Shown piece after piece: positions 5,952 to 52,334 of a stretch of 64,000 bases of DNA. The notes below the pieces were generated by a model. That model did no database searches. It worked only from the letters and a program-made list of their open reading frames with translations, and was not told the origin of the DNA. The position numbers were made by a program, and so were the translations under genes. The first letter of the stretch is position 1. Every line of letters starts with the position of its first letter. Source of the stretch: Candidatus Kerfeldbacteria bacterium (GTDB lineage: Bacteria > Patescibacteriota > Patescibacteriia > UBA10025 > JAHIVO01); assembly GCA_047946875.1 (NCBI GenBank), contig CP181398.1, positions 1,169,329 through 1,233,328 of the forward strand, written 5' to 3'.

Positions 5952-6127
5952 AACAAAACTTTTTAAAGATTGGAAATTTTGGGTGTGGGTAATAATTGTC
6001 CTATTGGTTGCTGCTTTTATTATATATAGTAGTTGATAATTATAATGCCACAAAAGGATTTAATTAAAGTATATTAAAAAATTCTGCTTATCGGCAGGCA
6101 GGCACCTTAAGAGGCGGGATTTTTTGA

Positions 6128-6245
6128 TTGGGGTCGGATAGCCCGTCCGCCACAGCTTCGCCGTAGGCGTGCCGGGCGGGCTGTTTACCCCGTCCTTCAT
6201 GGAAGGCGGGGTAAATTTTAGAACTTATTTATTAAGAGGTGTTTT
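6128..6245. repeat. copy of the 11291-11335 repeat (tRNA-His 3'-end-like) carrying two GC-hairpin insertions
   Basis: ttggggtcggatagc + [39-nt GC palindrome 6143-6181] + tgttta + [~29-nt hairpin 6188-6216, ccccgtccttcatggaaggcgggg] + ttagaacttattta. The uninterrupted version at 11291-11335 reads ctggggtcggatagctgtttatcttagaacttattta. Confidence 0.7.
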
Positions 6246-11160: not shown

Positions 11161-11335
11161 GGTGGTTAGACCTGCCTACCGGCAGGCAGGGGGAATTACG
11201 CGTCGCCTATTGGCTCGCTTCTACCCGTCCGATTCCCATTTTATCCCATATCAAAAAAAGTTCCACCATATAAATATGATAAAACTTTTTCTGGGGTCGG
11301 ATAGCTGTTTATCTTAGAACTTATTTAATGGATGG
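11161..11335. repeat. direct repeat of the tRNA-His downstream flank plus last ~12 nt of tRNA-His
   Basis: Aligns by eye (~80 percent) with 11720-11905, including ...catatcaaaaaaa...tttttctggggtNgg. Contains the GC hairpin cctgcctaccggcaggcagg (11171-11190). Confidence 0.7.
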
Positions 11336-18431: not shown

Positions 18432-18575
18432 TGGTGGGACGTAGAGGATTTGAACCTCTGACCGTTTGCTTCCCGCCTTTCGGACGGGACAAGTAAGAGG
18501 CAACTTTATCCCGCTAAGAATTGGCGGGATGCTCTACTTTACCCCGCCTATTAAAGGCGGGGCGAGCTGAGCTAA
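18432..18575 (-). pseudogene. decayed partial tRNA-Lys copy (nt ~8 to CCA) split by three GC hairpins
   Basis: ggtgggacgtagaggatttgaacctctgaccgtttgctt[cccgcctttcggacgggac]aagtaagaggcaact[ttatcccgctaagaattggcgggat]gctctac[tttaccccgcctattaaaggcggggc]gagctgagctaa, compared with the intact gene at 18843-18919. The 5' acceptor strand is missing. Confidence 0.8.
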
Positions 18576-18919: not shown

Positions 18920-19041
18920 GCGTCGATATAATATTTTTGGTTACGTTTTCAGCTTTCGCTGCTAATTCCACCGCTCATATCATTTCTCCTTTCCTCGCAG
19001 AACGGTATCGTTCAGCTCGGTATTATTTATTATAGGAATGG
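18920..19041 (-). ncRNA. tRNA-proximal structured spacer element, copy L2 (before tRNA-Lys)
   Basis: rc: ...GAACGATACCGTTC..GAGGAAAGGAGAAATGATATGAGCGGTGGAATTAGCAGCGAAAGCTGAAAACGTAACCAAAAATATTATATCGACG then the tRNA. Confidence 0.55.
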
Positions 19042-19202
19042 TACCCTCGAGAGCCCCGCTTTGAGCGGGATCTTCGAGAATCTCCGCCCAAGGCGGATGC
19101 GCCTATGGCGCAGAACCTTAAGTTTAAAAGATTGTTTATCCACGGCTCCCGCCCGCAACGCTAAAGCGTAGCTTTGGCGGGCGTGGTAGAAGGCCGTTGT
19201 TC
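19042..19202 (-). pseudogene. old tRNA-Arg 3' portion (nt 22 to 3' end) broken by about four insertions
   Basis: Matching blocks taccctcgaga / ttcgaga / aacct / atccacgg / tagaaggccgttgttc are separated by GC hairpins (19053-19072, 19080-19113, 19146-19186) and an AT-rich 19-mer (19119-19137). Track ORF 19030-19251 is spurious. Confidence 0.75.
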
Positions 19203-19311
19203 CCCGTCTGCCATCGCCAATACCCTCGAGAGGAATCGAACCTCTATCCACGGCTTAGAAGGCCGTTGTTCTATCCGTTGAACTACAAGGGCAATGGCAA
19301 TGGCGGGCAGG
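19203..19311 (-). mobile_element. 109-bp imperfect-IR-flanked unit carrying a complete tRNA-Arg, nested in the older tRNA-Arg
   Basis: cccgtctgccatcgccaa / tRNA / aatggcaatggcgggcagg. The flanks are imperfect inverted repeats (13 of 18 by my alignment). Confidence 0.45.
19221..19292 (-). tRNA. tRNA-Arg (TCT), no encoded CCA
   Basis: rc: GCCCTTG TA GTTC AACGGATA GAAC A ACGGC CTTCTAA GCCGT GGAT AGAGG TTCGATT CCTCT CGAGGGT A. Two G-U pairs in the acceptor stem. Confidence 0.85.
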
Positions 19312-19362
19312 TATCCGTTGTCAGGCAGAGCCTGATCCGGCTTTGCCGGAAACTACAAGGGC
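19312..19362 (-). pseudogene. old tRNA-Arg 5' portion (nt 1-21) with a 30-nt GC hairpin insertion
   Basis: tatccgttg[tcaggcagagcctgatccggctttgccgga]aactacaagggc. Directly abuts spacer element L3, as intact tRNAs do elsewhere. Confidence 0.75.
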
Positions 19363-19478
19363 GCGTCTAAATAATATTTTTGGTTACGTTTTCAGCTTTC
19401 GCTGCTAACTCCACCATTCATATCATTTCTCCTTTCCCCGCAGAACGGTATCGTTCAGCTCAATGTTATTAAATAATA
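19363..19478 (-). ncRNA. tRNA-proximal structured spacer element, copy L3
   Basis: Near-identical to L2: ...GGGGAAAGGAGAAATGATATGAATGGTGGAGTTAGCAGCGAAAGCTGAAAACGTAACCAAAAATATTATTTAGACGC. Confidence 0.55.
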
Positions 19479-27826: not shown

Positions 27827-29224
27827 ATGGCAAAAGAAAATGAGATAGTATTAGCAGTTAAGCAAATTTGTGAAGAAAAAAATATATCATTTGAATCAGT
27901 CATCGAAACAATTGAAGCTGCGTTGGCAGTGGCTTATCGTAAGGATTTTGGTGAAAAAAATCAAAATATTAAAGTTGAATTTGATATTGAAACTGCCGAT
28001 GCTAGTGTTTTTGATGTAAAAAAGGTAGTGACAGATGAAATATTTGAAGTATATGAAAAATTAAGAGAAGAAAAATTAGCAGAAGAAGCTAAAGAGGCTG
28101 CTGATGCTGAAAAAGGAATTGTTAAAAAGGAAAAAAAACCTACTAAAGTAGAAAAAAAAGAGGAAATAGATGATGAGGAAGAAGTAGAGAGATTTAATCC
28201 AAAAACTGATATTTCTTTATCAGAGGCCAAAAAAATTAAGAAAAGTATAAAGTTAGAGGGGGAAATCAAAACCGCTCTTACACCACCAGCTGCATATGGA
28301 AGAATGGCCGCTCAAACTGCTAAGCAAGTAATTGTTCAACGTTTACGTGAAGCAGAACGTGAGAATATTTATAAAGAGTTTAAAGATAAAGAAGGTGACG
28401 TAATAAACGGGACTATCCAGAGGGTAGAAGGAAGAATGGTGTTGGTTGATCTCGGTCCGACTACGGCATTATTACCTCCTCCAGAGCAAGTACCAATGGA
28501 AAGATATAATTCTGGTCAAAGATTTAAATTTTATGTAGTTGCAGTTAATGAGACTCCAAAAGGTCCAGAGATAATTTTGTCTAGATCTCATGTTGAAATG
28601 GTAAAAAAATTATTTATGTTGGAAGTACCAGAAATTGGTAACGGTTCAGTAGAAATAAAATCTATTGCAAGAGAAGCAGGCTCTCGTACTAAGTTGGCTG
28701 TTTTTACAACTCAGAAAAATATCGATCCAGTTGGTTCATGTGTTGGTCAACGTGGTGCAAGAGTACAAACTATAATTTCTGAGATTGGTGGGGAGAAAAT
28801 TGATATTGTTGAGTGGGATGAAGATCCTGTTAAATTTATTACAAATTCTCTATCCCCAGCTAAAGTATTAGGTGTTAATACAAATGAAGAAGAAAAAACT
28901 GCCAAAGTAGAAGTAAAAGAAGATCAATTATCTTTGGCTATTGGTAAAGCGGGTCAGAATGTAAGATTGTCTGCCAAATTGACTGGTTGGAAGATTGACA
29001 TAATTTCAGAAGCTGGTATACCGGCCATACCAAAGGAAGAATTAGATGATAAAGATGAAGATATTGAAAGTGAAGAAGAGATTGAAAAAAAAGAGGAGCC
29101 AAAAGATCTTGCAGCAAGCCTGCCTACCGGACAGGCAAGTTCAGAAGAAGTAAAAGAGGAAGAGAAGAAGGATGTTAAGGAAGAAGAGGTTGTAGAAGAA
29201 AAAAAGGAGGATAAAGAAAAATAA
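27827..29224 (+). CDS. nusA: transcription termination/antitermination factor NusA with acidic C-terminal tail
   Basis: S1 and tandem KH domains. E/K-rich insert and tail. Confidence 0.95.
   Translation: MAKENEIVLAVKQICEEKNISFESVIETIEAALAVAYRKDFGEKNQNIKVEFDIETADASVFDVKKVVTDEIFEVYEKLREEKLAEEAKEAADAEKGIVKKEKKPTKVEKKEEIDDEEEVERFNPKTDISLSEAKKIKKSIKLEGEIKTALTPPAAYGRMAAQTAKQVIVQRLREAERENIYKEFKDKEGDVINGTIQRVEGRMVLVDLGPTTALLPPPEQVPMERYNSGQRFKFYVVAVNETPKGPEIILSRSHVEMVKKLFMLEVPEIGNGSVEIKSIAREAGSRTKLAVFTTQKNIDPVGSCVGQRGARVQTIISEIGGEKIDIVEWDEDPVKFITNSLSPAKVLGVNTNEEEKTAKVEVKEDQLSLAIGKAGQNVRLSAKLTGWKIDIISEAGIPAIPKEELDDKDEDIESEEEIEKKEEPKDLAASLPTGQASSEEVKEEEKKDVKEEEVVEEKKEDKEK
29118..29136. repeat. GC-hairpin element (family cctgcctaccggcaggcagg) in frame inside the nusA tail
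   Basis: gcctgcctaccggacaggc encodes SLPTGQA within an otherwise E/K-rich tail. Related copies at 11171-11190, 48521-40 and 6084-6104. Confidence 0.6.
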
Positions 29225-29247: not shown

Positions 29248-29280
29248 TTCCGGCAGAGCCGGATCAGGCTCTGCCTGAAA
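29248..29280. repeat. 34-nt GC palindromic element (family tttccggcagagccggatcaggctctgcctgaaa)
   Basis: 9-bp stem GGCAGAGCC/GGCTCTGCC. Inverted copy at 34085-34120. Third copy inside the old tRNA-Arg fragment (19321-19350). Confidence 0.7.
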
Positions 29281-32632: not shown

Positions 32633-34084
32633 ATGAAATGGTCTGAAATATCAAAAATGTCAAAAGAAGAAATAAAAAATCTTCAAAATAAACAATTAGA
32701 AAAAATGATCAGACATCAAATTCCTTATTCTCCATATTATAGTAAGATGTTCAAAGATAATAATATTAGTTTTAAAGATATTAAAAATGTTGACGATTTA
32801 CAGAAATTACCATTTACTTCAAAAGAAGATTTGTTAGCTACTAAAGAAGATCCTGCTAAGGCAAAGAAATTTATTTTACAACCGGATGAAAAACTAATTA
32901 AAAAACATGCTCCAAAAAGTAAGTTAGCAAAAATAATATGGGGCAAGCTAACAAAACAAGATGTAAAACGTGACCTTGAGTTAGAATATAAACCAATCCA
33001 TATTCACTTTACTACTGGACGTAGCACAGATCCTATTGCTTTTACTTATTCAGCAAGAGATATATATTATTTACGCGAAGCTGGAGAAAGAATGCTTGAT
33101 GTAGCTGGTGTTCCAAGAGATATCACAGCTATGAATGCATTCCCCTATGCTCCACATTTAGGATTTTGGCAGGTATATAATGCTTGTACCAAAATAGGAT
33201 TAACATCTATTCAAAGTGGAGGTGGTAAGATTATGGGAACTCAGAAGATAATTGATGCAATGGAAAGAATGAAGATTGGATTCATTGCTTTCATACCTGG
33301 ATATGGATATCACTTAATTCGTCAGGCAGTAAAGCAGAAAAGAGATTTTTCAGGTTTAAAAATATTAGCAAGTGGTGGTGAGAGAGCAAGTATGGGTATG
33401 AAAACAAAGACTAAAGAGTTGTTGAAGGAAATTGGAGCTGATGATGTTAGATTTGTATCAACTTACGCGTTTACAGAAGGAAAAGTAGCTTGGATCCAAT
33501 GTCATGAAAGTTCTGGTTATCACTTATATCCAGATTTAGAATATTTTGAGGTAATTGATAAGGAGGGCAATAGAGTCCCAGAAGGTGAACCAGGTGAATT
33601 AGTATATACTTCTTTAAATTGGCGCGGTACAGTCGTTCTACGTTATAGAACGGGTGATATGACTGAAGGTATAGAATATGAACCATGTACACATTGTGGC
33701 AAAACTGTACCAAGAATTAAAATGGATATTCAAAGAACTTCAGAAATTAAAGAATTTCATTTAACTAAAGTAAAAGGTGAATTTGTAAATTTGAATGATT
33801 TTTATCCCCTACTTACATCTATTGATGATGTAGAAGAATGGCAGGTAGAAATTAGAAAGAAGAATAATGATCCATTTGATGTTGATGAAATAGTATTGTA
33901 TATTGCCTCAAAAGAGGGTGTTAATTTTGAACAATTAGAGGCAAAATTAAATCACGAGCTTCATAGTCAAATGTTTATCAGAGCAAACATTATTCAAAAA
34001 CCATTACAGCAGATGTTGCAAATGCTAGGCATGGAAACTGAATTAAAGGAAAAAAGATTAGTTGATAGTAGACCAAAAAAATAA
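32633..34084 (+). CDS. phenylacetate-CoA ligase / F390 synthetase-like adenylate-forming enzyme
   Basis: Overall PaaK-family pattern (TSGRST-like TTGRSTDP, YRTGD). Confidence 0.75.
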   Translation: MKWSEISKMSKEEIKNLQNKQLEKMIRHQIPYSPYYSKMFKDNNISFKDIKNVDDLQKLPFTSKEDLLATKEDPAKAKKFILQPDEKLIKKHAPKSKLAKIIWGKLTKQDVKRDLELEYKPIHIHFTTGRSTDPIAFTYSARDIYYLREAGERMLDVAGVPRDITAMNAFPYAPHLGFWQVYNACTKIGLTSIQSGGGKIMGTQKIIDAMERMKIGFIAFIPGYGYHLIRQAVKQKRDFSGLKILASGGERASMGMKTKTKELLKEIGADDVRFVSTYAFTEGKVAWIQCHESSGYHLYPDLEYFEVIDKEGNRVPEGEPGELVYTSLNWRGTVVLRYRTGDMTEGIEYEPCTHCGKTVPRIKMDIQRTSEIKEFHLTKVKGEFVNLNDFYPLLTSIDDVEEWQVEIRKKNNDPFDVDEIVLYIASKEGVNFEQLEAKLNHELHSQMFIRANIIQKPLQQMLQMLGMETELKEKRLVDSRPKK

Positions 34085-34120
34085 TTTCAGGTAGAGCCTG
34101 ATCCGGCTATGCCGGAAATT
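34085..34120. repeat. 34-nt GC palindromic element, inverted copy
   Basis: tttcaggtagagcctgatccggctatgccggaaa equals the reverse complement of 29248-29280 with two substitutions. Confidence 0.7.
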
Positions 34121-48511: not shown

Positions 48512-48549
48512 AAACTGCGCCTGCCTGCCGGTAGGCAGGCTACACCCCG
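48512..48549 (-). pseudogene. old tRNA-Pro 5' portion (nt 1-17) split by a 20-nt GC hairpin
   Basis: aaactgcgc[ctgcctgccggtaggcaggc]tacaccccg versus the intact ccaactgcgctacaccccg. Lies 25 nt after tRNA-Phe. Confidence 0.75.
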
Positions 48550-48882: not shown

Positions 48883-48989
48883 CTAGGAGTTGATCAAATG
48901 TCGCGCTCCCCGCCCGTACCGAACGGGTACGTTCGGGCGGGTAACTTCATCCCGCCTGTTCTAGGCGGGGCAAGCTGAGCTAATCGCCC
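48883..48989 (-). pseudogene. decayed tRNA-Ile copy (5' third plus T-loop remnant) with two GC hairpins and an internal deletion
   Basis: ctaggagttga..gtcgcgctc[48908-48942 hairpin]aac[48946-48971 hairpin]aagctgagctaatcgccc versus the intact gene. The anticodon arm is missing. Confidence 0.7.
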
Positions 48990-50975: not shown

Positions 50976-51659
50976 TCAAGCTTTTTTACGTATTCTAGAA
51001 TTATTAGTTTTCCAGGCCAAAATATCATTATGATTGCCACTTAATAGTACTTTTGGCACTTTTTGGCCATTAAAATTTTCAGGTCTGGTGTATTGTGGAT
51101 ATTCAATATATTTTTCGTCTTTTGTAAATGTTTCATCTTTTGAAGATTGGTCATCTCCAAGTACTCCAGGTAATAATCTAGTCGTTGCATCAATAATTGT
51201 CATGGCTGGTAATTCTCCTCCGGTCAAAACATAATCTCCTATGGAAATTTCTTCATCAATGTATTTTTTTATTCTTGCATCGTAACCTTCATAACGTCCA
51301 GCAATCAAAATTAGCTGATCATACTTTGTTAATGACTTTGCTTTTTTTTGATCAAACTTTTTTCCTTTAGGAGTTAGTAAGATGATTCTAGATTTCCCGC
51401 CAGAGGCGGGTCCGCCTTTGGAGGATTTTAATCGTTTAATTGACTTTAAACATTTGTATAGAGGTTCTATTTTTAATAACATTCCTGGACCACCACCATA
51501 AGGTTTGTCATCAACAGACTTATGCTTGTCAGTAGCGAAGTTTCTGAAATTATGGATGATAATGTTTATCTTTTTATTTTTTATTGCACGCTTAATAATA
51601 CTTTCTTTAAAGTATGATTCAAAAATATCTGGAAAAATTGTGAGAATGTCGAATTGCAT
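50976..51659 (-). CDS. trmD: tRNA (guanine37-N1)-methyltransferase
   Basis: GGGPGM, AGRYEGYDARI and GGELPA motifs. Confidence 0.95.
   Translation of the reverse strand: MQFDILTIFPDIFESYFKESIIKRAIKNKKINIIIHNFRNFATDKHKSVDDKPYGGGPGMLLKIEPLYKCLKSIKRLKSSKGGPASGGKSRIILLTPKGKKFDQKKAKSLTKYDQLILIAGRYEGYDARIKKYIDEEISIGDYVLTGGELPAMTIIDATTRLLPGVLGDDQSSKDETFTKDEKYIEYPQYTRPENFNGQKVPKVLLSGNHNDILAWKTNNSRIRKKA
51396..51425. repeat. GC-hairpin element in frame inside trmD (interdomain linker)
   Basis: cccgccagaggcgggtccgcctttggagg encodes SKGGPASGG on the minus strand. CCCGCC/GGCGGG stem. Confidence 0.55.
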
Positions 51660-51980
51660 GTCTTTATAATAGCAAAAAGAGTTGGATAAGGGTAATTTCT
51701 GTCACTTTTTTGACATCAAAAAAGTAACTGAAAAAAGTGTTGGGGGTTTCAATGCGCTTTATCATAATTCGAATATTTTTAGACTATAAGGGCTTAAAGA
51801 AACCCCCAAACCCTAAAGTTACAGCAAACTATAAATTTGTTTAATTTTTTATATGTATGAGTATTTTTTATCTTCGAGTGTATCCTTCTCTGGGTATGCG
51901 ACATTATAATATATATTTATTTAAACTAAAAACCGCATAATATATTATAGCGGCTTTTAGGTATTTTATTTTAAAAATTT

Positions 51981-52334
51981 TTAGATTTTGAGGTCGTCTA
52001 CAGCTGAGGTATCAGCTTCTTCCTCTCTAGGAGCGCCAGGAGCTTTTGGACCGCCTTTGCGGAAACCTTCTGGCTCATAAATCTTCAAGTTTACTCGAGC
52101 GTGATTTTTTGCACCAACCACTCTTAGTAAAGTTCTGATAGCCTTAGCGGTTTGACCTTGTCGGCCGATAACCTGACCTAAGTCAGCAGGATTTACTTTT
52201 AAAGTGATTAAAACGCCCATTTCGTCAACCGTTCTCTCTGAGGAAACGTCCTCTGGTCGGTCAACTAGACCTTTTACTACGTACTCGACAAACTCTTTAT
52301 CTCTTGTATCGTTTGTATTTGCTTCTTCTGTCAT
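51981..52334 (-). CDS. KH-domain RNA-binding protein (YlqC/UPF0109 family) with C-terminal extension
   Basis: GQVIGRQGQTAKAIRTLL. The extension contains the ccgcctttgcgg motif (52051-52062). Confidence 0.9.
   Translation of the reverse strand: MTEEANTNDTRDKEFVEYVVKGLVDRPEDVSSERTVDEMGVLITLKVNPADLGQVIGRQGQTAKAIRTLLRVVGAKNHARVNLKIYEPEGFRKGGPKAPGAPREEEADTSAVDDLKI

What the first reader, a model, noticed from the sequence alone, without database searches (positions are those of the whole stretch)
29118..29136. GC-hairpin elements sit in frame inside essential genes (nusA tail, trmD linker, probably the KH-protein tail)
In nusA, gcctgcctaccggacaggc (family cctgcctaccggcaggcagg) encodes SLPTGQA in the middle of an E/K-rich acidic tail. 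In trmD, 51396-51425 (cccgccagaggcgggtccgcctttggagg) encodes SKGGPASGG in the interdomain linker. In the KH protein, 52051-62 (ccgcctttgcgg) contributes RKGGP. The trmD and KH copies share the DNA core ccgcctttg and the same KGGP peptide. This points to a common inserted DNA rather than convergent protein evolution. In-frame tolerated insertion of palindromic repeats into ORFs is established for Rickettsia RPEs. I am not aware of it being described for this kind of genome.
Basis: partly seen in the sequence, partly recalled or inferred. Interest (0 to 1): 0.65.

Follow-up and report, generated by a model that had tools for sequence, protein, structure and literature searches.

The report
Tiny hairpin DNA inserted inside genes
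Two essential genes of this candidate-phyla-radiation bacterium (trmD and nusA) carry in-frame insertions of short GC-rich hairpin repeats, and the trmD one belongs to a 30-base element found in at least 120 genome stretches labelled as many bacterial phyla, where copies inside genes are nearly always read as Ser-Ala-x-Gly-Gly-Ser-Ala-x-Gly-Gly.

Summary
The window comes from a Candidatus Kerfeldbacteria (Patescibacteria) genome with 34% GC.

**Confirmed.**
- trmD carries an exact 10-codon insertion at 51396-51425. 78 of 120 homologues, the closest one (81% identity), and solved TrmD structures all lack it.
- It is a double mini-hairpin of the type TCCGCCnnnGGCGGA x2.
- nusA 29118-29139 is a copy of the intergenic palindrome CCTGCCTACCGGCAGGCAGG plus one base, giving 21 nt in frame. 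Two relatives share it.

**Corrected or rejected.**
- The trmD site is a loop in the N-terminal domain, not the interdomain linker.
- The KH-protein "copy" is not an insertion. EPEGFRKG is conserved in nearly all 120 homologues, with synonymous DNA differences.

**Extension.**
- Hosts include RpoC, AtpD, TsaD, aminoacyl-tRNA synthetases, UvrB and a relative's NusA tail.
- Of 70 copies inside long ORFs, 63 are in the phase reading SAxGGSAxGG.
- Stems change by compensatory pairs.
- One window copy sits in the T-loop of a tRNA-Arg-like duplicate without target duplication.

**Best explanation.** This is selfish palindromic DNA like Rickettsia palindromic elements or intragenic REPs, filtered by selection to harmless loops. 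The mobilising enzyme is unknown. I found no prior description.

The parts
51396..51425 (-). In-frame 30-nt double mini-hairpin in trmD. On the mRNA strand it reads TCCTCCaaaGGCGGA CCCGCCtctGGCGGG = S79-S-K-G-G-P-A-S-G-G88.
   Evidence: It is an exact 10-residue insertion relative to 78 of 120 homologues and to PDB TrmD 3ky7. The empty site in L003 reads AAG AAG AAA TCT AGA. It differs by 3 mismatches from the consensus TCCGCCnnnGGCGGATCCGCCnnnGGCGGA, with 0 matches expected by chance. It is 1 nt from the subfamily ...GGCGGACCCGCCTCTGGCGGG seen in L086 and L176. In the AF2 model, aa 80-87 is the only segment of 3 or more residues with pLDDT<50.
29118..29139 (+). In-frame family-B hairpin in the NusA tail. 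(G)CCTGCCTACCGG-A-CAGGCAAG encodes SLPTGQA(S), aa 431-438.
   Evidence: The first 13 nt are identical to the intergenic palindrome GCCTGCCTACCGGCAGGCAGGC. One extra A makes the element 21 nt, so the frame is kept. The same element lies at the same tail position in L001 and, with a nested insert, in L002. It is absent from P0003-P0007. It folds at -11.6 kcal/mol, z = -3.1.
11171..11190 (.). Intergenic family-B palindrome CCTGCCTaccggcAGGCAGG.
48519..48540 (.). Intergenic family-B palindrome GCCTGCCTgccggtAGGCAGGC, between tRNA-Pro and tRNA-Phe.
6083..6102 (+). Diverged family-B copy (3 mismatches), intergenic.
29249..29278 (.). Intergenic double mini-hairpin TCCGGCagaGCCGGA TCAGGCtctGCCTGA, 25 nt downstream of the nusA stop codon.
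   Evidence: It has 6 mismatches to the trmD-type consensus, and both 15-nt units still form perfect 6-bp stems. It folds at -25.8 kcal/mol, z = -7.4. In L002 another hairpin is nested in its loop.
34087..34116 (.). Intergenic double mini-hairpin TCAGGTagaGCCTGA TCCGGCtatGCCGGA, the same family as 29249-29278 in reverse orientation.
19321..19350 (.). Intergenic double mini-hairpin TCAGGCagaGCCTGA TCCGGCtttGCCGGA, next to tRNA-Arg.
19083..19112 (.). Double mini-hairpin TCCGCCcaaGGCGGA TGCGCCtatGGCGCA, inserted in the T-loop of a tRNA-Arg-like duplicate.
   Evidence: It has 2 mismatches to the consensus, and they are a Watson-Crick compensatory pair. Alignment to tRNA-Arg 19220-19293 shows GGTTC|30 nt|GATTC with no target duplication.
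19031..19219 (-). tRNA-Arg(TCT)-like duplicate interrupted by four GC-hairpin insertions. ARAGORN does not call it.
52051..52062 (-). KH-protein site ccgcctttgcgg (RKGG). This is NOT an inserted element; it is ancestral coding sequence.
   Evidence: EPEGFRKG is conserved in nearly all 120 homologues. L086 encodes RKGG as CGC AAA GGA GGT. The fold is no better than shuffles (z = -0.64).

Best explanation
**What it is.** trmD and nusA each carry an in-frame copy of a short GC-rich palindromic repeat that also occurs outside genes in the same genome.

- The trmD copy belongs to family A, a 30-nt 'double mini-hairpin': two 15-nt units of a 6-bp stem and a 3-nt loop, TCCGCC-nra-GGCGGA | TCCGCC-tyn-GGCGGA.
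- The nusA copy belongs to family B, the 20-22-nt hairpin CCTGCCTACCGGCAGGCAGG.

**How it most likely works.**
- Shown: these are repeated DNA elements that are gained and precisely lost at specific sites.
- Shown: one family-A insertion in the window leaves no target-site duplication.
- Shown: family-A copies sit next to T-rich and A-rich flanks (TT | AA), and several hairpins are nested in the loops of other hairpins.
- Shown: copies within genes are a multiple of three long. Family-A copies are in the one phase translated as Ser/Ala/Gly-rich peptide (S-A-x-G-G-S-A-x-G-G). Where mapped, they lie in a loop or a gap relative to solved homologues, or in a low-complexity C-terminal tail.
- Inferred: this pattern results from purifying selection acting on random insertions. 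The inserts are translated and tolerated, not useful.
- Inferred, untested: mobilisation is by a hairpin-recognising single-strand DNA enzyme acting in trans (HUH/Y1 type, as proposed for REPs).
- Either selection on the DNA/RNA hairpin or intrastrand templated repair keeps each 15-nt stem paired.
For: **trmD.**
- Exact 10-codon presence/absence in an alignment of 120 homologues.
- Exact 10-residue gap against PDB 3ky7.
- Disordered loop in the AF2 model.
- From the peptide SAKGGSAFGG of P0177 I predicted the perfect palindrome TCCGCCAAAGGCGGATCCGCCTTTGGCGGA. Its DNA (L085) is exactly that, including every synonymous position.
- Other TrmD lineages carry, at the same site, variants with different loops or stems, always paired (L084, L004), or a single 15-nt unit (L086).
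- NJ tree: the two filled genes with the same diverged copy are each sister to empty genes, which implies precise losses. P0126 is filled inside an empty clade, which implies a separate gain.

**Family membership.**
- Four family-A copies in 64 kb against 0 expected.
My composition-based estimate of the chance expectation for the whole collection is below 1 match.
- Of 70 copies in ORFs >=150 aa, 63/3/4 fall in phases 0/1/2, although all phases are equally free of stop codons.
- Hosts are unrelated housekeeping proteins: RpoC, PheT (two copies), CysS, AspS-type, a class I aaRS, DnaJ, UvrB, Mfd.
- Exact 10-aa gap in TsaD against 4ydu and 9-aa gap in AtpD against 7xkh.
- The NusA tail of a syntenic relative holds an exact copy.

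**DNA-level rather than peptide-level signal.**
- 5 of 6 two-mismatch copies are Watson-Crick compensatory within one mini-hairpin.
- Copies also lie in intergenic DNA and in a tRNA-like T-loop without target duplication.

**nusA.**
- 13 + 6 identical bases to family B with one added base.
- Shared by L001 and L002, with a 15-nt unit nested in the L002 copy.
Against: - No transposase or other mobilising function was identified. Only 64 kb of the genome was available.
- Flanking direct repeats of >=5 nt occur in 18 of 123 copies against 3 expected. This does not fit a strictly duplication-free mechanism. Some of these sit in local 7-nt tandem repeats.
- Repeated occupation of exactly the same trmD codon boundary in at least 5 lineages needs either a strong target hotspot or many precise losses.
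- Conserved, compensated stems could mean the hairpin has a function (rival 1) rather than being purely selfish.
- Translation of the insert is inferred from the phase bias, not observed.
- Because the NusA tail cannot be aligned, 'insertion' there rests on DNA identity to the repeat family.
- Taxon labels come from MAG record titles and may include mis-binned contigs. The two 70%-GC hits (L141, L143) lie in Gly/Ala-rich low-complexity sequence.
Confidence: 0.8

Rival explanations
1. The hairpins are functional RNA or DNA signals (transcription pause, termination or processing sites, mRNA stabilisers, or protein-binding sites). Selection places and keeps them, including inside trmD and nusA mRNAs. 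The encoded peptide is a by-product.
For: Stems are kept by compensatory changes while loops vary. Intergenic copies sit directly after gene ends (29249-29278 after nusA; 34087-34116 after the ORF ending at 34084) and beside tRNA genes. The folds are strong (z down to -7.4).
Against: Close relatives do without the element at the same sites. Hosts and positions are unrelated. The strict reading-phase bias (63/3/4) is a constraint on translation, not on a signal. No U-run follows the hairpins. No Rfam family matches. Compensatory stems can also arise from intrastrand templated repair.
Confidence: 0.12
2. Convergent protein evolution: Gly/Ser/Ala/Pro-rich linker peptides are selected in loops and tails. 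The DNA looks palindromic only because GGN, GCC and NCC codons are mutually complementary.
For: G-G-P-A and G-G-S-A peptides are intrinsically close to self-complementary at the DNA level. This does explain the KH-trmD 9-mer: c-AAA-GGC-GG encodes K-G-G.
Against: Every synonymous position of L085 matches the predicted perfect palindrome. The same 30-mer occurs in intergenic DNA, in other reading phases and in a tRNA-like gene. Changes are compensatory at the nucleotide level. The insertions have a fixed length of 15 or 30 nt.
Confidence: 0.04
3. Assembly or library artefact: a palindromic oligonucleotide or fold-back chimera was introduced into metagenome assemblies.
For: All genome hits are metagenome-assembled genomes. 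The element contains a BamHI site (GGATCC). All literature hits for the core sequence are cloning primers.
Against: The insert lies at the same trmD codon in independent samples and assemblers, with diverged, orthologous copies (WIN and L083). There is a reading-phase bias. Loops vary and subfamilies exist. Copies are embedded in a 1.31-Mb contig.
Confidence: 0.02

Closest known systems
Rickettsia palindromic elements (RPE; Ogata et al. 2000, as summarised in PMC10969869)
   Same: Repeated palindromic DNA inserted in frame into many unrelated housekeeping genes. It is translated, and judged compatible with protein fold and function. It is interpreted as selfish DNA.
   Different: RPEs are about 100-150 bp, encode tens of residues and are confined to Rickettsia. 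This element is 15 or 30 nt and GC-rich within an AT-rich genome. It has no sequence similarity to RPEs and occurs in MAGs labelled as many phyla.
Intragenic REPs (GTAG- and CGTC-tagged repetitive extragenic palindromes; Di Nocera et al. 2013, PMC3733652)
   Same: Short GC-rich stem-loops, mostly extragenic and downstream of genes, often as dimers. Some copies lie inside genes, including uvrA, uvrB and recB. They are hypothesised to be mobilised by HUH tyrosine transposases (RAYTs). Here UvrB and Mfd are also hosts.
   Different: There is no GTAG or CGTC tag; the flanks are TT | AA. The unit is only 15 nt, against 20-40 bp. No RAYT has been identified. The strict reading-phase bias and multi-phylum spread are new observations here.
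Organellar GC clusters and repetitive hairpin-forming elements (yeast mtDNA GC clusters; sponge mtDNA RHEs, PMC2800124)
   Same: GC-rich hairpins spread through AT-rich compact genomes, mostly intergenic. PMC2800124 reports occasional insertions in rRNA and protein genes. Nested insertions are an own-knowledge parallel.
   Different: Those are organellar genomes with different sequences. No comparable reading-phase rule has been described for them.
MITEs
   Same: Small, non-autonomous, repeated, and sometimes intragenic with in-frame fusions (PMC10969869).
   Different: MITEs have terminal inverted repeats bounding an internal segment, and regular target-site duplications. Here the whole element is the hairpin, and duplications are absent or irregular.

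Membership tests
REP (repetitive extragenic palindrome) superfamilies | Short (20-40 bp) imperfect GC-rich palindrome repeated many times per genome | tested here: inconclusive
   The palindromic and repeated criteria are met: 4 family-A and 3-4 family-B copies in 64 kb, against 0 expected. The unit is 15 nt (30 as a dimer), which is shorter than the definition. The genome-wide copy number is unknown.
REP (repetitive extragenic palindrome) superfamilies | GTAG or CGTC tetranucleotide tag at one end (PMC3733652) | tested here: not met
   The flank consensus is T(-3) T(-2) T/C(-1) | A A A, with no GTAG or CGTC.
REP (repetitive extragenic palindrome) superfamilies | Association with a RAYT (IS200/IS605-type tyrosine transposase) gene | not testable with these tools
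   Only 64 kb of the 1.31-Mb genome was available, and no genome-wide protein scan was possible.
Rickettsia palindromic elements | About 100-150-bp palindromic element with a conserved encoded peptide, in Rickettsia | tested here: not met
   The elements are 30 nt and 21 nt, in a Patescibacteria host.
Rickettsia palindromic elements | In-frame insertion in unrelated housekeeping genes at positions compatible with the fold | tested here: met
MITE | Terminal inverted repeats plus a regular target-site duplication | tested here: not met
   There is no duplication at the tRNA-like T-loop insertion. Direct repeats of >=5 nt flank only 18 of 123 copies.
Intrinsic (Rho-independent) terminator | GC-rich hairpin followed by a U-run | tested here: not met
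   The hairpins are followed by A-rich sequence (GGCGGA|AAA; GCCTGA|AATTAA).

The most novel reading that the evidence does not exclude
The 30-nt double mini-hairpin would be one of the smallest mobile DNA elements known (own knowledge). On this reading it is currently active, moves between distantly related phyla in uncultured groundwater and sediment communities (Patescibacteria, Omnitrophota, the PVC group, Ignavibacteriota and others), and is built so that one reading phase yields a harmless flexible peptide in either orientation. That would let it colonise even the most conserved proteins (RNA polymerase beta', F1-ATPase beta, TsaD, aminoacyl-tRNA synthetases). It would be driven by an as yet unidentified hairpin-specific enzyme.
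Probability: 0.4. Interest if true: 0.9.

Novelty: new variant of a known kind. Interest (0 to 1): 0.8.

Why it matters
- In-frame selfish palindromes were described for Rickettsia and a few REP-rich bacteria. This result shows the same phenomenon with a far smaller element, in the reduced genomes of candidate-phyla-radiation bacteria and in many other uncultured lineages.
- The element gives a sequence signature (SAxGGSAxGG; TCCGCCnnnGGCGGA x2) that explains odd Gly/Ser-rich inserts in otherwise conserved proteins. Annotation and alignment pipelines could mask it.
- It provides natural 'linker-insertion scans' that mark tolerant loops in essential enzymes.
- It is a tractable system for asking how very short hairpin DNA is copied, kept paired, precisely excised and spread between phyla.

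Tried and rejected
- **KH-protein copy:** rejected because the motif is conserved with synonymous differences.
- **trmD 'interdomain linker' placement:** rejected.
- **Metagenome scan with TrmD:** it returned only one close relative (L003, empty site). The rest were <=60% identical, many from marine non-CPR lineages.
- **DNA for NusA P0009 (SAQGGLASGG):** could not be fetched.
- **Family B outside the window:** only one exact copy in 1.4 Mb of fetched loci.
- **Viral contigs:** only 2 hits, so phages are not the main carrier.
- **Rfam:** no family covers the hairpin-rich intergenic regions.
- **Long perfect 30-nt hairpin as the selected structure:** rejected. The middle loop positions are complementary less often than expected (29 against 50.5), and compensatory changes respect the 15-nt units.
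- **Regular target-site duplication:** rejected.
- **Synteny comparison with L209:** no further GC-rich in-frame indels in 11 neighbouring genes, so such insertions are sparse.
- **Literature searches by sequence, peptide and topic:** no prior description.
Full report
**Source and genes.** The window has 34% GC. Its NusA is 100% identical to a protein of a Candidatus Kerfeldbacteria (Patescibacteria) MAG on a 1.31-Mb contig. Pfam confirms three genes:
- nusA, 27827-29224 (+)
- trmD, 50976-51659 (-)
- a KhpA-type KH protein, 51981-52334 (-)

**Observation.**
- The nusA 19-mer encodes SLPTGQA (aa 431-437) in an E/K-rich tail.
- The intergenic 'family' is real. CCTGCCTACCGGCAGGCAGG occurs at 11171-11190 and, reversed, at 48520-48539, with a 3-mismatch copy at 6083-6102. 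No match is expected by chance.
- The 12-mer CCTGCCTACCGG is shared exactly by nusA and both intergenic copies. Allowing one mismatch there are 5 matches against 0.02 expected.
- A census of perfect GC-rich hairpins (stem >=6) finds 18 in the window. Fifteen are intergenic, and the trmD one is the only one in a solid gene.

**trmD.** An alignment of 120 homologues shows a minimal loop in 78.
- The window protein and P0122 carry SS[K/R]GGPASGG.
- P0126 carries SARGGSAMGG, and P0177 carries SAKGGSAFGG.
- Each is exactly 10 residues longer than the minimal loop, at the same point.
- P0123, the closest relative (81% identity), is empty.
- Solved TrmD structures show an exact 10-residue gap (3ky7).
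- An AlphaFold2 model places aa 80-87 in the only stretch of 3 or more residues with pLDDT<50, a loop between helix 64-73 and strand 90-96.
- The site is therefore in the N-terminal domain, not the interdomain linker.

**DNA behind the trmD inserts.** From the peptide SAKGGSAFGG I predicted a perfect 30-nt palindrome, TCCGCCAAAGGCGGA|TCCGCCTTTGGCGGA. The DNA of P0177 (L085) is exactly that. The other copies are as follows:

| Locus | Sequence at the trmD site | Comment |
|---|---|---|
| L084 | TCCGCCcgaGGCGGA TCCGCCatgGGCGGA | different loops, stems paired |
| L004 | TCCCGCgtaGCGGGA TCCCGTtttGCGGGA | different stems, still paired |
| L086 | single 15-nt unit | 5 codons |
| Window | TCCTCCaaaGGCGGA CCCGCCtctGGCGGG | diverged form |
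| L083 | TCCTCCagaGGCGGA CCCGCTtctGGCGGG | same diverged form as window |
| L003 | AAG AAG AAA TCT AGA | empty site |

In an NJ tree the two genes with the shared diverged copy are each sister to empty genes. P0126 is filled inside an empty clade. Both precise loss and independent gain are therefore needed.

**A family (A), not a one-off.**
- The window holds four copies within 6 mismatches of TCCGCCnnnGGCGGATCCGCCnnnGGCGGA, against 0 in shuffles: trmD, 19083-19112, 19321-19350 and 29249-29278. A fifth, more diverged copy lies at 34087-34116.
- In the 2-mismatch copy 19083-19112 the two changes form a compensatory pair. In the two 6-mismatch copies both 15-nt units still form perfect 6-bp stems.
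All are MAGs. Most are labelled as Patescibacteria lineages. Others are labelled Omnitrophota, Kiritimatiellae/Lentisphaerae/Verrucomicrobiota, Planctomycetes, Ignavibacteriota and others.
- My composition-based estimate of the chance expectation for the whole collection is below one match.
- Only two hits occur in 2.9 million viral contigs.

**Reading phase and hosts.**
- Of 126 copies, 70 lie within ORFs of >=150 aa, away from the ORF ends.
- Of these, 63 are in the phase that reads S-A-x-G-G-S-A-x-G-G, which is the same on either strand. Three and four are in the other two phases.
- All phases are equally free of stop codons.
- Copies in the other phases (FRxRRIRLRRK, PPxADPPxAE) are mostly in short ORFs, that is, intergenic.
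- Hosts identified by Pfam include RNA polymerase beta', PheT (two copies in one gene), CysS, an AspS-type and a class I aminoacyl-tRNA synthetase, DnaJ, an S41 protease, a type I restriction R subunit, UvrB and Mfd.
- Against solved structures the element is an exact 10-residue gap in TsaD (4ydu) and a 9-residue gap in F1-ATPase beta (7xkh).
- The NusA tail of a syntenic relative (L209) contains an exact copy, TCCGCCgaaGGCGGATCCGCCtctGGCGGA. The trmD-type element therefore also colonises NusA tails.
- Across 11 syntenic genes between the window and L209, the NusA tail is the only place with GC-rich indels. Such insertions are sparse.

**Anatomy and mechanism clues.**
- Flanks are biased: T at -2 in 86% of copies and A at +2 in 78%. 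Loops are mostly NRA and TYN.
- The commonest form has loops AAA/TCT (peptide SAKGGSASGG), the same loops as the window's trmD copy.
- The middle loop bases are complementary less often than expected (29 against 50.5).
- In 5 of 6 copies with two mismatches, the changes are Watson-Crick compensatory within one 15-nt unit. The unit hairpin, not the long 30-nt hairpin, is what is preserved.
- A subfamily ...GGCGGACCCGCCTCTGGCGGG (GGPASGG) recurs in L086 and L176 and differs from the window's trmD copy by one base.
- Window region 19031-19219 is a duplicate of the adjacent tRNA-Arg gene, interrupted by four hairpin insertions. The 30-nt element lies exactly within the T-loop (GGTTC|30 nt|GATTC) with no target duplication.
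- Elsewhere, flanking direct repeats of >=5 nt occur in 18 of 123 copies against 3 expected, several of them within local 7-nt tandem repeats.
- Hairpins nest in the loops of other hairpins (L002).
- These features fit REP-like, hairpin-directed single-strand DNA mobilisation better than cut-and-paste MITE transposition. No enzyme was identified, so this step is inference.

**nusA (family B).**
- Aligned with the intergenic copies, the nusA element is GCCTGCCTACCGG + A + CAGGCAAG. The first 13 bases are identical, one base is added in the loop, and 7 of the next 8 match.
- The added base makes the 20-nt core 21 nt, which keeps the frame.
- L001 (NusA 77% identical) has the same element at the same tail position (SLPTGQVG).
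- L002 (89%) has it with a 15-nt unit, TCTTCCAAAGGAGGA, nested inside.
- P0003-P0007 lack it.
- Because the tail is low-complexity and cannot be aligned, 'insertion' here rests on DNA identity to the repeat family. I could not scan the collections for family B.

**KH protein.**
- EPEG[F/Y]RKG is conserved in nearly all 120 homologues.
- L086 encodes RKGG as CGC AAA GGA GGT.
- The site folds no better than shuffles.
- The 9-mer shared with trmD is c-AAA-GGC-GG, and it also encodes a KGG in the ORF at 1-1260.
- KGGP is expected 0.24 times and seen twice in 17,121 residues. That is a weak coincidence, and it is explained once the trmD copy is recognised as an element and the KH residues as ancestral.

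**Comparison with what is known.**
- In-frame palindromic selfish DNA is established for Rickettsia RPEs (PMC10969869).
- Intragenic REP monomers and dimers occur in several bacteria, notably in uvrA, uvrB and recB (PMC3733652).
- GC-rich hairpin elements invade AT-rich organelle genomes (PMC2800124).
- This element shares the logic of those cases but fails their defining features: no GTAG/CGTC tag, 15/30 nt rather than 20-40 or 100-150 nt, and no terminal-repeat-plus-duplication structure.
- Searches by sequence, peptide and topic found no description of it or of such insertions in these lineages.

**Verdict.** trmD and nusA hold, the KH protein does not, and the structural position given for trmD was wrong. 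I class it as a new variant of a known kind. The main open points are the mobilising mechanism, direct proof of translation, and the true taxonomic range, which here rests on MAG labels.

Noticed in passing
window 19031-19219 (- strand): A duplicate of the adjacent tRNA-Arg(TCT) gene is interrupted by four GC-hairpin insertions: in the anticodon loop, the variable region, the T-loop, and before the 3' acceptor strand. It still ends in CCA, and ARAGORN does not call it.
   Followed up: partly
window 18925-19015 and 19365-19470: A direct repeat of about 100 nt lies beside the tRNA-Lys and tRNA-Arg genes. It may be a duplicated promoter/leader unit.
   Followed up: no
window 18540-18575 and 48951-48985: Two sites share AGGCGGGGC[G/A]AGCTGAGCTAA, joined to a CCCGCCT hairpin. 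The GCTGAGCTAA part resembles the reverse complement of a tRNA D-arm. One site is between the 16S rRNA gene and tRNA-Ile.
   Followed up: no
L002 1675-1735 and 1455-1512: In the closest nusA relative, an extra GC hairpin is nested in the loop of the hairpin downstream of nusA. A 15-nt mini-hairpin unit is nested in the in-frame nusA element.
   Followed up: partly
L091 4569-4752 and 6390-6572: In a Kiritimatiellae MAG the 30-nt element is part of a repeat of about 185 nt present twice, 1.8 kb apart. Related flanks are seen on two other contigs of the same MAG (L088, L136).
   Followed up: partly
L122, L145, L146, L147, L188 (flanks of the element): The element sits within short 7-nt periodic tandem repeats (e.g. 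AAATCTT, AAGATTG, AAAAGTC). These account for several of the apparent flanking direct repeats.
   Followed up: no
window 51660-51980: There is no rimM between the KH gene and trmD. The 320-nt gap contains an 11-bp inverted repeat, TTGGGGGTTTC ... GAAACCCCCAA.
   Followed up: no
window 6140-6215: A large GC-rich composite hairpin (AGCCCGTCCGCC...GGCGGGCTG, followed by CCCCGTCCTTCATGGAAGGCGGGG) lies in the intergenic region next to the diverged family-B copy. Rfam gives only sub-threshold matches.
   Followed up: partly
NusA tails of P0005, P0008, P0012, P0018, P0026, P0034, P0085, P0088: Many relatives' NusA tails contain other short non-E/K peptides (e.g. DPVRPASRSEAGE, EGPADSGPGE, SASTNVSVDKS, PPAGRPIAG). 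These look like further GC-rich inserts. In L001 and L002 the corresponding DNA folds no better than shuffles.
   Followed up: partly
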